64,000 nt of DNA from Eledone cirrhosa (taxonomy: Eukaryota). Under the pieces are notes generated by a model. That model was given only the letters and a program-made list of their open reading frames with translations, ran no database searches and was not told where the DNA came from. Where the stretch lies: NCBI GenBank assembly GCA_964016885.1, contig OZ024750.1:44826001-44890000 (forward strand), written 5' to 3'. Below are positions 5,901-21,530 of this stretch, piece by piece. The stretch's first letter is position 1; each line of letters opens with the position of its first letter. A program made the position numbers and the translations under genes.

Positions 5901-6617
5901 AAGACCCAATCGCTATAGAATAGAATACGTCACGTATTACAATTAGATTCTCGACAAAAGCAAGGGAAGTAATCTACGCGTTTCATTCTTGTTAGAAATC
6001 ATCAGGACTACATATCCAGTGCTTTTATCGAGAATGACACAGCTAGAGACTTATAGAATACTTAGCTGTGTACAGGAACTGGTTTGAAAGAGCGGTTGCC
6101 GGTCCGGCAGAAATTAGAAATTGGAATAAATGCTCTGAAATAGCGATATATATGTGAATATAGACATAGAATATTCGAAAATATTCTGTATGTTTATAAT
6201 AAACATTTTGAAGACCCAATCGCTATAGAATAGAATACGTCACGTATTACAATTAGATTCTCGACAAAAGCAAGGGAAGTAATCTACGCGTTTCATTCTT
6301 GTTAGAAATCATCAGGACTACATATCCAGTGCTTTTATCGAGAATGACACAGCTAGAGACTTATAGAATACTTAGCTGTGTACAGGAACTGGTTTGAAAG
6401 AGCGGTTGCCGGTCCGGCAGAAATTAGAAATTGGAATAAATGCTCTGAAATAGCGATATATATGTGAATATAGACATAGAATATTCGAAAATATTCTGTA
6501 TGTTTATAATAAACATTTTGAAGACCCAATCGCTATAGAATAGAATACGTCACGTATTACAATTAGATTCTCGACAAAAGCAAGGGAAGTAATCTACGCG
6601 TTTCATTCACTGGATAT

Positions 6618-6660
6618 GTAGTCCTGATGATTTCTAACAAGAATGAAACGCGTAGATTAC
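6618..6660 (+). ncRNA. Minimal type I hammerhead ribozyme in the inverted arm (also 6928-6970 and 7238-7280)
   Basis: gtagtc CTGATGA tttctaacaagaat GAAA cgcg TA gattac, with predicted cleavage after 6654. In full units stem I extends by 16 bp (attctcgataaaagca / tgcttttgtcgagaat) beyond an internal loop. Confidence 0.88.
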
Positions 6661-7429
6661 TTCCCTTGCTTTTGTCGAGAATCTAATTGTAATACGTGAC
6701 GTATTCTATTCTATAGCGATTGGGTCTTCAAAATGTTTATTATAAACATACAGAATATTTTCGAATATTCTATGTCTATATTCACATATATATCGCTATT
6801 TCAGAGCATTTATTCCAATTTCTAATTTCTGCCGGACCGGCAACCGCTCTTTCAAACCAGTTCCTGTACACAGCTAAGTATTCTATAAGTCTCTAGCTGT
6901 GTCATTCTCGATAAAAGCACTGGATATGTAGTCCTGATGATTTCTAACAAGAATGAAACGCGTAGATTACTTCCCTTGCTTTTGTCGAGAATCTAATTGT
7001 AATACGTGACGTATTCTATTCTATAGCGATTGGGTCTTCAAAATGTTTATTATAAACATACAGAATATTTTCGAATATTCTATGTCTATATTCACATATA
7101 TATCGCTATTTCAGAGCATTTATTCCAATTTCTAATTTCTGCCGGACCGGCAACCGCTCTTTCAAACCAGTTCCTGTACACAGCTAAGTATTCTATAAGT
7201 CTCTAGCTGTGTCATTCTCGATAAAAGCACTGGATATGTAGTCCTGATGATTTCTAACAAGAATGAAACGCGTAGATTACTTCCCTTGCTTTTGTCGAGA
7301 ATCTAATTGTAATACGTGACGTATTCTATTCTATAGCGATTGGGTCTTCAAAATGTTTATTATAAACATACAGAATATTTTCGAATATTCTATGTCTATA
7401 TTCATATATATATATATATATATATATAT

Positions 7430-7702
7430 GTAAAAGTTCTATTTAAATTGTTGGGATACAACAAGCAAATATATTTATAACTGATATAAAGCACTCAACA
7501 AATAATTGGAGTAAAAACGATATTAACAAATGGAAACTATATTTATAAAACCATATTTGTTTCATTATACATGTTTCAAGCACACTAAGTTAAATTATGG
7601 TGTGCTTTCATCGGATAACATATAATATAGACCAGTTTTATAAATAAATATTGACATACCCTTAAAGAATGCAACCATTACTGTTGGAAGCTCCCCGATA
7701 GT
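7430..7702 (-). mobile_element. Single-arm copy of the 21.2-kb hammerhead element family (core variant CCGAUGA at 7560-7620)
   Basis: Highly similar to 21177-21350 (gatattaac...ctgttggaagc). Perfect 8-bp stem II aagcacac/gtgtgctt, then GAAACAUGUAUA. Bounded by (TA)n on both sides. Confidence 0.8.
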
Positions 7703-8856
7703 ATATATATATATATATATATATATATATATATATATATATATATATATATATATATATATATATATATATATATATATATATATATATATATATATAT
7801 ATATATATGTGTGTGTGTTTGTGTGTGTGTGCAAAAGATAAACGATTCATGTTGCCATCTGCACGTAGAGTAATATCCTGCGTTTCGGATTCTCATCCGC
7901 CGAACTTTATTTAAATATATTTAAATTCTTTATTGAACATAAATAAACATGTTATTCTATTTAACCTATAAGAGAAATGGTCTGATTCGAAACTTTGGTT
8001 ATAAGCACGTACAACTTTATTTTTGAAAATATTTGTTTCATATCGAAGAATAAGGAAAAATTGCTTCCTTCGAACGTTTTTATTAAAAACAGTATTCCCA
8101 CAATAAACACACGATTTAATGGATAAAGAGATTAAAAATGTTTGTCTATTAAGGGTGCACACTGTTCCTTTAATACAGTACAAAATTGTGCCAAGCATGA
8201 AACTATTCTCATATAATTGTTTTTTCGCATTTGCCAGTGTATTGTGTCGTACACAAAAACAAACTCACAACCATAAGAGGGAACAGATACATAGAGATGT
8301 TACTGTTGTTTAAACCCAATCACCCCATCACTTTTATATATGATCTGTAGCCGTTGCTTCTTAGTTGATTTCATACGGACAACCTAACAGTAGAGTTTGG
8401 TTGTTTTTTTTTTCGGACCTGGTGTAATATTTAAGAGAGAATGAGCAACTAAGCAATAAACTGAAGTGAACATCAAGTAGCTAGCTGATTCTTACAGTAT
8501 GTAATTCTGTTGACAATATATATAATGAAATTAAAAATGAGGCTGGATAGATAGATCATTAAGTAAACAAGGAATACGTCGCATCACAAAAGATAGATAG
8601 ACAAATAGATAGATAGATAGATATAAAGAGAGGGGGAGAGAGGGGGAGAGTGAGAGCTGGATATATATATAGAAAGAGATATAGAAAAGAGAGAGAGAGA
8701 TATATATATAGAAAAGAGAGAGAGAGAGAGAGAGAAACAGAGAGAGGGAGAGAGATGTAGCAAAGAGAGATGTGCTAAATTTGCAGAAAAATCGGAATTT
8801 TTCTAAAAATTTTTCATAACTGATGTCGCTTTTGAAGCAATTTCCGCTTTTTATAT

Positions 8857-8996
8857 TCTTTTACTGTTTTGCTGGTTTCAGCAGTTAGACTGCGGCCATA
8901 TTGTTGCGCCGCTTTGAAGAGACTTGGTCGATCATATTGAACTTAGTAATTATATTTTAAAGTTTGTGGCTTATACTATCGATCTCTTCCTTTTGA
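8857..8996 (-). mobile_element. Degenerate SINE 3' fragment (second family)
   Basis: tttcagcagttagactgcggccatattgttgcgccgc resembles the reverse of the tail gcggtgccccagcatggcc seen at 10272-10315. Family recognised from memory of octopus repeats. Confidence 0.5.
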
Positions 8997-18955: not shown

Positions 18956-19074
18956 TGATACATGAGATGTTAAATGGTTAAGATTTAAGCGAACTTAATT
19001 AAATCTTGTCTACCTTGATTAAATCTTAACCATTTAACATCTCAGGGTATGTCATGTATCATTATATATTGTCT

Positions 19075-19240
19075 CGGTAGAGGGTCGAACGCCATGCTTT
19101 CCAGCATAGTTACATCCCTTTACGATCTGAGTTCAAATCCCGCCGAGGTTGACTTTGCCTTTCATCCTTACGGGGTCGATAAAATAAAGTACCAGTAATG
19201 CACTGGTTAATTGCTGGCCTTGTGCCTAAAGTAGAAACAA
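19075..19240 (+). mobile_element. SINE inserted in the hammerhead element, with a 14-bp target-site duplication
   Basis: TSD attatatattgtct (19061-19074) / attatagtttgtct (19240-19253). B-box GTTCAAATCC. Confidence 0.9.
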
Positions 19241-20440
19241 TTATAGTTTGTCTGATGAAGACGTACTGTCGTACATCCGAAATATGTATAATAAAATGTA
19301 ATTGATCAAAAGAACATCTATTTTATTAATATTTATATTCTAATATATATATATATATATATATATATCTGTGTGTGTGTGTGTATGGGTGTGAGTGTGT
19401 GGGTGTGCGTGTGTGTGTAGATAGATAGATAGATATTTGTAGTGTGTAGGCTCCCGATTGGTGTCAGAAGGTTTGAGCGCTAACCCCAGTTGAAAAAATG
19501 TAGTCAATAAGTTGGTTGTGTATAGCCTTCTTTATTATATATAAATATTAACTCTACAATCATTCTTATGAAATCATTCTTATGGTTAATGCAATAGAAA
19601 ATGTGTTCACACAGGTATTAGAAAAGTACAATTCCTTGACTAGCCCGCAGCCGAAGCCAAGAAAGAGCTAGAAAACCAGAGGTAAAGAGAGGCGTTGGGA
19701 ATGGGAAATTAGGTAACTGCCATACGTGATTGGTATTTTAATTATTGATTTTGGAATGATGTAAGCGGCGTAGAGCAAAGTTGTTCTTGGGGGATTACAT
19801 AATAACTTCTTTTAGATAGCGACAGAGATTATACAGCAAAACCCCAAAATATATGTGAAGCAAAGTTAGAAGTGTTATTGTGTTTAGAGCGTATGATTAA
19901 AAGCAACACGGTATTTGATTTGATCCGGTTTCAAACACTTTGAGTTCAAATCCCACCAAGACCAACTTTCATCCATGGTCGAACGCTGGATTTCCCATAA
20001 AATGAAATAAATTAAAACAAAATTTCAATAAAATACATATTTAGGGGGCACCATAAAATGTACGATTCAAGATGTTTTGTAGAATATATTTTCACGTGAA
20101 TTCTCGGAAGTGCTCTATAAGAGGAAATTAACAAAGACCTAGGTTTGATGTGGAAGTTTGTAACGGTCTGAGATTTCCTGTGCCATTATTGGTATTAAGG
20201 CATATCGGACTTTGACTTTCATATAAACATCGATGGGCTAGTGAGGGAAGGCATGCTTATATTGTCAATTAAATGTATATCGCTCTAATGATTTCACCTT
20301 ATTCTTATATTCCTGTGTCAATTGCTTTAGCTGCATATGTAGGAGTCAATTAACTTTTGTCAAATCGGACCGATGAAACAATGTTTCTAATGGTCTTTCC
20401 AATTGCTAATACTATATATCGGTCGCAACTCCAGGTAGAA

Positions 20441-20538
20441 GGAGCAACGTGAAATAAAGTGCCTTGCTCAAGGACATAACGCATGAACCGGTCCAGGAAT
20501 CGAACTCTCAAACTCACGATTGTGCATCATATTCGCTA
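20441..20538 (-). mobile_element. 5' part of a tRNA-derived SINE with CORE/V-like central motif
   Basis: Minus strand has A-box TGGCTGAGTGG and B-box GTTCGATTCC, then TGTCCTTGAGCAAGGCACTTTATTTCAC. Confidence 0.75.
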
Positions 20539-21176
20539 CCCACTCAGCCACGCGCCTTCAAAATAGCTACATATAACAGATATAAAAACACTCGAGCATA
20601 CACATGCACACACATATACACACACACATATAGATACACACAGAAAAAAACAAACAGAAAAAACAAAAGTAGAACAGGCATATACACGAGGGACATTCAA
20701 GAACCAAACAACTCAAGATTTAAAATATACTGAAACATCGAATTTCGTCATTTCAAAATTTCAATTCAGACTGACTGATTATAAAATCCTGGATGTTGAA
20801 GAGAGGAGAAGAAAATATTTAGTTAAAATGATAAATACGCAATAGGGCAATTAGAGGGAAGGGGAAAAGATTATCAAAATAAACATGGAGTAACATGTTT
20901 GAAAAAATAAAATAAACAATGATTATTTACCAAACAGGAAAGTCATTCTTATATCGCGCCATGGATGAGAGACAGTCTAGCATGTTTTATGAAGACATAA
21001 AGAATTTCATTTGCTTCATAGAAATTACGCTATGAATATGAATAAATTCAGGTTCCACAATATATATATATATATATATATATATATATATATATATATA
21101 TATATATATATATATATATATATATATACATACATATATATATATATATATATATATATATATATATATATATATA

Positions 21177-21530
21177 CGATATTAACAATGGAAACTATAT
21201 TTATAAAACCATATTTATTTCATTATACATATTTCAAGGACACCAAGTTAAATTATGGTCTGCTTTCATCAGATAAAATATAACATAGAGCAGTTTTATA
21301 AATAAATATTGACATACCCTTAAAGAATGCAACCATTACTGTTGGAAGCCCCGGGAGCTTCCAACAGTAATGGTTGCATTCTTTAAGGGTATGTCAATAT
21401 TTATTTATAAAGCTGCTCTATGTTATATTTTATCTGATGAAAGCAGACCCTAATTTAACTTGGTGTCCTTGAAATATGTATAATGAAACAAATATGGTTT
21501 TATAAATATAGTTTCCATTGTTAATATCGT
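21177..21530. mobile_element. Near-perfect ~354-bp palindromic hammerhead element in (TA)n
   Basis: Arms are reverse complements about a centre near 21352. Ribozymes at 21218-21278 (-) and 21428-21488 (+): ttttat CTGATGA aag...ctt GAAA tatgta TA atgaaa. Confidence 0.87.

What the first reader, a model, noticed from the sequence alone, without database searches (positions are those of the whole stretch)
6595..21530. Junction anatomy suggests two-ended priming from a broken (TA)n tract
Seen: outer ends merge into TA repeats at TA-like internal positions (ttccaa|tata, tattca|tata, tctaa|tata, atcgt|atat). Separate copies reuse the same end (11153 and 12154; both arms of 21177-21530). Inner junctions vary and show little or no microhomology (6608, ~11233, ~12110, ~21352). 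Inference: (TA)n is self-complementary, so both 3' ends of a break could anneal to UA-rich sites of the RNA and prime cDNA, giving a head-to-head product analogous to L1 twin priming. The process might also lengthen TA tracts.
Basis: inference. Interest (0 to 1): 0.7.

Follow-up and report, generated by a model that had tools for sequence, protein, structure and literature searches.

The report
Penelope retroelements insert by paired priming
The head-to-head repeats inside TA tracts are ribozyme-carrying Penelope-type retroelement insertions whose two arms nearly always end at two different fixed sites, likely because both ends of the cut DNA prime reverse transcription on one RNA, which would explain a long-unexplained Penelope structure.

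Summary
The elements carry type I hammerhead motifs. Family B is the 3' UTR/pLTR of an autonomous Penelope-like element (PLE) with RT and GIY-YIG. Family A is a 310-nt tandem retrozyme. All 87 directly abutting inverted B pairs point their RNA 3' ends outward into TA. In 120 of 122 classifiable two-arm insertions of five families, one arm ends at site S1 and the other at site S2, 35-90 nt downstream (the PLE 'tail'). The arms share subfamily alleles (340 of 351). Either arm can reach further 5', and some S2 arms are tail-only, so fold-back cannot be the general route. Two-ended priming is supported, most likely on one RNA. UA annealing only tunes the ends: B's longest UA run has 14 long-TA junctions genome-wide against more than 3,600 at S1/S2, and two start sites have only 1-2 nt of homology. 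TA lengthening is not shown. The anatomy and the two start sites are known; their pairing on one template was not found in print.

The parts
2710..6608 (-). Family A retrozyme, left arm: 12.6 copies of a 310-nt unit, antisense, outer end at S2 (unit position 212) in TA tract 2689-2711
6608..7404 (+). Family A right arm: 2.6 units, sense, outer end at S1 (unit position 177) in TA tract 7404-7429; 1-nt overlap at the inner junction
6618..6661 (+). Type I hammerhead motif of family A (core at 6624, predicted cut after 6654, palindromic CGCG helix III); the descriptor found 15 copies across the two arms
   Evidence: own descriptor; helix I also in fold
7430..7701 (-). Family C single arm with tail (S2 end)
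10761..10907 (-). Family B insertion B1, left arm, outer end at S1; followed by a 39-nt templated duplication (10908-10952) at the inner junction
10953..11153 (+). B1 right arm from the likely transcription start to S2; holds a variant hammerhead motif (U3-A8 core, 10982-11019, predicted cut after 11015) and the unused UA run
11172..11365 (.). Family D insertion: antisense arm 11172-11232 (S1), sense arm 11233-11365 (S2); blunt inner junction; hammerhead-like core seen by eye only
   Evidence: sequence
11960..12101 (-). Family B insertion B2, left arm from S1 to the likely transcription start
12102..12154 (+). B2 right arm: tail only (reference 351-403), not overlapping the left arm; the classic twin-priming shape
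18758..19343 (.). Family E insertion: antisense arm with tail (S2) from 18758, sense arm ending at S1 at 19343; hammerhead motif at 18944 (-)
21177..21529 (.). Family C insertion C2: near-perfect palindrome, both arms ending at S1, junction in a CCGG palindrome; the exception, compatible with fold-back; hammerhead motifs at 21272 (-) and 21434 (+)

Best explanation
These are hammerhead-carrying Penelope-like and retrozyme insertions in (TA)n whose two arms end at two fixed element sites, likely because a PLE protein pair cuts both strands of the tract and primes one cDNA from each DNA end, at S1 and S2 of the same RNA. Shown: hammerhead motifs, link of family B to an RT plus GIY-YIG ORF, outward 3' polarity, S1+S2 pairing, shared alleles, independent arm lengths. 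Inferred: endonuclease cut, dimer, one RNA, displacement of the S1 cDNA by the S2 cDNA (or blocking, which gives tail-only arms), run-off at a transcription start (B) or rolling round a circle (A), and joining of the two cDNA ends through 0-3 nt of microhomology. One to seven nt of UA pairing tunes the exact start but does not choose the site.
For: Polarity: 88 of 95 opposite-orientation B neighbours are antisense-then-sense; the other 7 all have a TA tract between them. Pairing: B 68 of 68, A 23 of 23, C 11 of 12, D 15 of 16, E 3 of 3; 118 of 120 after dropping two local duplicates. Arm reach in B direct junctions: 36 equal, 16 with the S2 arm further 5', 7 with the S1 arm further. In 4 of 9 long-gap pairs the S1 arm reaches hundreds of nt further. 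In A the S1 arm is longer in 7 of 15. Tail-only S2 arms: window B2 and 4 of 12 C pairs. Same template: 340 of 351 subfamily alleles agree (permutation mean 0.635, maximum 0.755); in A, 34 minor variants sit in both arms and 8 in one (permutation mean 6.7, maximum 19). Inner phases in A are near uniform (mean 66 of an expected 77.5 nt). Half of B inner ends lie 30 nt below TATAAAA. PAc in vitro cuts and extends both strands, starts at two sites that bound the tail, and is predicted to be a dimer (PMC11167929).
Against: No RNA or biochemical data here. 36 of 59 B direct junctions are near-symmetric, and some (the CACATCTG type) fit fold-back equally well. Two same-site pairs (window C2, L193) fit fold-back better. 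Shared alleles also fit two RNAs from one locus, or arm-to-arm gene conversion. PAc showed no difference in start site between strands and no homology at the start, whereas B's sites do have 4-7 nt of UA. About half of B arms are solo (74 in the pattern-chosen sets), so two-arm products are not obligatory. 16 of 84 B pairs had one end outside S1/S2 or blurred. Site zones for C, D and E were drawn after seeing the data.
Confidence: 0.65

Rival explanations
1. Two-ended priming on two RNA molecules held by an asymmetric protein pair, one subunit always starting at S1 and the other at S2.
For: Explains polarity, pairing and overlapping arms without strand displacement; minimal hammerheads act as dimers (PMC4209133 passages).
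Against: Arms share locus-private variants even in the non-coding family A (34 against a permuted 6.7), so both RNAs would have to come from one locus; tail-only arms suggest blocking on one RNA (weak: 4 of 12 in C, no excess seen in B).
Confidence: 0.15
2. Fold-back or self-priming: one cDNA folds back and copies itself (or an antisense transcript self-primes), and the endonuclease then trims one arm at S1.
For: Proposed for head-to-head PLE palindromes (PMC3846280) and for the tail (PMC8557442); many B junctions are near-symmetric, L029 uses a natural hairpin, and window C2 is S1/S1 with a CCGG centre.
Against: Requires one arm nested in the other. Staggered pairs (7 direct, 4 long-gap), tail-only arms, S1 arm longer in 7 of 15 A insertions and near-uniform inner phases in A contradict it. 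No S2/S2 pair in 68.
Confidence: 0.1
3. One reading: a spontaneous break in self-complementary (TA)n anneals to whichever UA-rich RNA sites are available.
For: B-S1 and B-S2 are followed by TATA and TATATA; A-S1 lies beside (AU)4 and 6 of 25 A-S1 ends fall inside that run; about 7 of 12 viewed long-TA junctions at B's internal UA run look like true ends.
Against: B's longest UA run has 14 long-TA junctions against 2,790 at S2 and 845 for one S1 variant; A-S2 and C-S1 have 1-2 nt of homology; free choice predicts about half same-site pairs, observed 2 of 122.
Confidence: 0.05
4. Whole palindromes are transcribed as hairpin RNAs from master copies and copied in one pass, with deletions at the tip.
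For: One inner junction recurs 11 times.
Against: Arm differences are 2.2%, mostly non-recurrent and led by C>T, with no A>G or T>C excess; no S1/S1 products in B; matches between flanks of different loci are few (6 among 168 flank ends) and, where viewed, another TA-inserted family; the recurrent junction lies at the likely transcription start.
Confidence: 0.04
5. MITE or DNA transposon, or an assembly fold-back artefact.
For: Palindromic shape in TA sites.
Against: Asymmetric ends, variable centres, hammerhead motifs, continuity with an RT plus GIY-YIG ORF; arms differ by 2.2%; 3 of 82 B pairs gave mirrored-flank hits, short or 83-93% identical.
Confidence: 0.01

Closest known systems
EN+ Penelope-like elements (Neptune/Nematis-type linker; Penelope/Poseidon anatomy)
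   Same: RT followed by a C-terminal GIY-YIG domain, pLTR with a minimal type I hammerhead, inverted 5'-truncated copy head-to-head, tail at one end only, (TA)n bias (PMC8557442, PMC3846280 passages).
   Different: Tails of 60-90 nt in B-E against the usual 30-40; family B's start sites lie just before the ORF and carry UA homology; clade not placed on a tree here.
PAc (Anolis Poseidon) internal initiation, PMC11167929
   Same: Two internal RT start sites bounding the tail, both strands cleaved and extended, AT-rich target, predicted dimer.
   Different: Its main text does not report pairing of the two sites within one insertion or link them to the inverted structure; PAc starts without homology.
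Metazoan non-LTR retrozymes (PMC7229834, PMC7761336, bioRxiv 10.64898/2026.07.22.740005)
   Same: Tandem units of a few hundred nt with a type I hammerhead, GC below 50%, no ORF, multimeric cDNA from a circle proposed.
   Different: Here arrays come as two inverted arms with fixed S1/S2 ends in (TA)n; 'inverted' does not occur in the main text of PMC7229834 and only in a reference title of the preprint.
L1 twin priming (recalled from memory, not read)
   Same: Both target ends prime cDNA on one RNA; antisense arm then sense arm; short junction microhomology.
   Different: L1 arms do not overlap and the second primer site is variable; here arms mostly overlap and both sites are fixed. Only the tail-only cases have the L1 shape.

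Membership tests
EN+ Penelope-like element (family B) | One ORF with RT and C-terminal GIY-YIG | tested here: met
   L293 ORF of 762 aa: PF00078 E 4.9e-07 and PF01541 E 7.7e-05, both above the curated cut-off; its 3' UTR runs into family B
EN+ Penelope-like element (family B) | CCHH motif in the endonuclease; CX2-5CxxC linker of Neptune/Nematis | tested here: met
   Seen by eye in the translation, motif definitions from PMC8557442
EN+ Penelope-like element (family B) | pLTR repeated before the ORF, with hammerhead and optional tail | tested here: met
   29 of 30 ORF-start loci have the B tail then TATATA then the ORF; hammerhead motif
EN+ Penelope-like element (family B) | Clade by RT phylogeny | not tested
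   No tree built
Non-LTR retrozyme (family A) | Tandem non-coding unit with a type I hammerhead motif per unit | tested here: met
   310-nt unit, 12.6 + 2.6 copies, motif found 15 times; not among the 150 best Rfam rows shown
Non-LTR retrozyme (family A) | Self-cleavage and circular RNA | not testable with these tools
   No RNA holder listed
L1-type twin priming | Arms cover non-overlapping parts of one RNA | tested here: not met
   Met only by tail-only cases (window B2; 4 of 12 C pairs); most arms overlap
L1-type twin priming | Both RNA 3' ends face the flanks | tested here: met
MITE | Fixed terminal inverted repeats with equal ends and a constant interior | tested here: not met
   Ends unequal (S1 against S2), centres variable

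The most novel reading that the evidence does not exclude
Paired two-site priming on a single RNA is the normal way Penelope-like elements and retrozymes make two-armed insertions: one protein pair starts one cDNA at each edge of the tail from each DNA end. This one step yields the inverted pLTR, the one-sided tail and, on circular templates, two simultaneous rolling-circle cDNAs, with no conventional second-strand synthesis from the target end.
Probability: 0.5. Interest if true: 0.8.

Novelty: new member of a known kind. Interest (0 to 1): 0.58.

Why it matters
How PLEs make their tandem/inverted structures and why they prefer microsatellites is named as open in PMC8557442. PMC3846280 proposed antisense self-priming. 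PMC11167929 found two start sites and extension of both strands without linking them to the inverted form in its main text. This genome gives thousands of young insertions in which the two sites pair one per end, arms share a template and non-nested arms exclude fold-back as the rule. That turns the open question into a direct test in an existing in vitro system, and it supports PLE machinery mobilising retrozymes, because family A shows the same two-site signature 35 nt apart.

Tried and rejected
Rfam scan: only hairpin and microsatellite chance hits among the 150 rows shown of 309; hammerheads rest on my own descriptor, and four folds were not better than shuffles. An apparent arm-specific allele (GATCC against GACCC) was my ascertainment artefact: 181 against 11,496 matches genome-wide; that site was left out. 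A 66-nt DNA search found nothing. A guessed continuation after S2 found nothing, and one search showed no shared continuation; the real one came from full-length copies. RNA: no RNA holder listed; contigs of 4 runs showed no empty site; neither is evidence. TA lengthening: a paralogous TA site is intact in 98 of 100 listed copies, mostly 5-10 units by eye. Of 19 copies with 27 or more units, 14 are intact (27-62 units), 2 are filled (36+27, 27+27), 2 unresolved and 1 deleted. A third filled site has 28+13; another nested insertion has an 11-nt duplication with no expansion. B flanks sum to 68 nt on average against a size-weighted tract mean of 38, and left and right lengths are not equal more often than chance (8 against 7.5). 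Verdict: suggestive, inconclusive. My 'imperfect tract' measure was faulty and is not used. In one search the D pair L165 is tail-to-tail with TA between (its row), although the summary line prints it otherwise; it is left out. Earlier-findings look-ups returned nothing.
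Full report
What the window holds. The window is TA-microsatellite-rich DNA from a 3.0-Gb genome. Between 2.7 and 21.5 kb lie several inverted elements flanked by TA tracts: A (2710-7404), B1 (10761-11153), D (11172-11365), B2 (11960-12154), E (18758-19343), C2 (21177-21529) and a single arm C1. A descriptor of my own found type I hammerhead motifs with a short palindromic helix III in A, B, C and E; D shows a similar core by eye. Rfam showed no hammerhead among the 150 rows listed. The motif fixes the RNA strand: the left arm is antisense and the right arm sense, so RNA 3' ends face the TA tracts.

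What the elements are. Family B has about 11,500 exact motif matches in the genome. Long copies run upstream into a 3' UTR and an ORF with RT and C-terminal GIY-YIG that carries the CCHH and CX2-5CxxC motifs (definitions from passages of PMC8557442). In 29 of 30 loci found with the ORF start, the B tail is followed by TATATA and then the ORF. B is therefore the pLTR and 3' end of an autonomous PLE. Family A is a non-coding 310-nt tandem unit, 99-100% identical among the top loci, with 1,013 exact S2-TA junctions. It fits the non-LTR retrozyme description (passages of PMC7761336 and PMC7229834).

Polarity and fixed ends. In 210 B loci merged to 175, 88 of 95 opposite-orientation neighbours are antisense-then-sense; the 7 others all have a TA tract between them and are separate insertions. 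In the pattern-chosen set, 129 of 145 arms end at S1 or S2, 62 nt apart. Family A ends fall in two zones about 35 nt apart. [quoted passage not shown]

Pairing. Of 84 non-edge B pairs, 68 have both ends at S1 or S2, and all 68 are S1+S2 (33 from the unbiased pattern set, 11 from the rare-allele set, 24 from similarity-selected loci); the other 16 have one end elsewhere or blurred. A gives 23 of 23, 8 of them selected for an S2 end. C gives 11 of 12, D 15 of 16 and E 3 of 3, with zones drawn after seeing the data and 4 pairs unclassifiable. The total is 120 of 122, or 118 of 120 without two local duplicates (L064, L243).

Two primers, not fold-back. Fold-back needs nested arms. Among 59 direct B junctions, 36 are about equal, 16 have the S2 arm further 5' and 7 the S1 arm; 4 of 9 long-gap pairs have a much longer S1 arm. 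Window B2 and 4 of 12 C pairs have a tail-only S2 arm that does not overlap its partner. In A both arms are multi-unit arrays, the S1 arm is longer in 7 of 15, and inner phases are near uniform (mean distance 66 nt, 5 of 30 within 15 nt). Junction microhomology is short but above chance (mean 2.1 against 0.75). A minority, such as C2, L029 and the CACATCTG junctions, remains compatible with fold-back, the model of PMC3846280 (passages).

One template. Arms agree at 340 of 351 subfamily sites (permutation mean 0.635; unbiased set 172 of 179). In A, 34 minor variants are in both arms and 8 in one, against a permuted mean of 6.7. Other arm differences are 2.2%, mostly unique and led by C>T, without an editing signature. 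One RNA is the simplest reading; two RNAs from one locus or gene conversion are not excluded. Half of B inner ends (98 of 197) lie at one place 30 nt below TATAAAA, which suggests both cDNAs run off a transcript's 5' end; only 7 lie near the predicted ribozyme cut. This start site is inferred, not measured.

UA annealing. B-S1 and B-S2 have 4 and 6-7 nt of UA match, and A-S1 shifts within and beside an (AU)4 run. But the commonest A-S1 junction (15 of 25) skips a C, and A-S2 and C-S1 match by 1-2 nt. B's longest UA run is read through in nearly all of 100 listed arms and has 14 long-TA junctions genome-wide, 3 of 12 viewed being expansions in place, against 2,790 at S2 and 845 for one S1 variant. 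Pairing with UA tunes the start; it does not pick the site.

TA lengthening is inconclusive. Filled paralogous sites sum to 41-63 units, but empty ones reach 62, and one nested insertion shows only an 11-nt duplication.

Literature seen: PMC11167929 parts 1-2 of 4 (main text and part of methods) plus a term search; passages of PMC8557442, PMC3846280, PMC7761336, PMC4209133 and PMC7229834; part 1 of 5 plus passages of bioRxiv 10.64898/2026.07.22.740005. No supplements were read; those of PMC11167929 (Figs S1, S2) may bear on pairing. L1 twin priming is recalled. Searches turned up no paper, among those read, that pairs the two start sites within one insertion or applies twin priming to PLEs; other listed papers were seen as listings only. 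The library lacks most subscription papers, including the older Penelope papers these works cite.

Verdict. The elements are new members of known kinds and the anatomy is known. The value lies in genomic evidence for a paired, two-site mechanism that can be tested directly.

Noticed in passing
L243:2491-2850 and L244:5297-5660: About 360 bp left of a family A insertion (TA tracts plus a D-like palindrome) recurs inverted at 98.9% just beyond its right arm; may be a template switch at self-complementary TA or priming from two sister ends.
   Followed up: partly
window 31925-32933: TA-flanked complex inversion: 31925-32215 is mirrored at 32475-32765 and 32348-32475 at 32806-32933; no hammerhead by my descriptor.
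   Followed up: no
window 18317-18530 and 31527-31902: Further TA-flanked palindromes with a one-sided tail; the first family recurs in many loci.
   Followed up: no
window 10982-11019: Family B hammerhead motif has a U3-A8 core instead of C3-G8; activity untested.
   Followed up: partly
L254, L255, L291: A family A insertion of about 13 kb sits inside the internal TA run of a full-length family B element; this nesting revealed B's ORF.
   Followed up: yes
L082:760-1620: An A-related palindromic element inserted in B's internal UA run with an 11-nt target duplication and no TA expansion.
   Followed up: partly
L142, L186, L193, L241, L243, L253: ORF fragments that look like other PLE families by eye; three of them were scanned and had no Pfam hit; candidates for mobilising A, C, D and E.
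   Followed up: partly
window 38642-47879 and 48715-64000: Two long 24-nt satellite arrays of G/T-rich units with GC skew 0.8-1.0.
   Followed up: no
window 1170-1360, 19071-19245, 25208-25393, 34501-34671, 35705-35885, 37100-37282: A repeat of about 190 bp, SINE-like by shape, in many copies, one inside element E.
   Followed up: no
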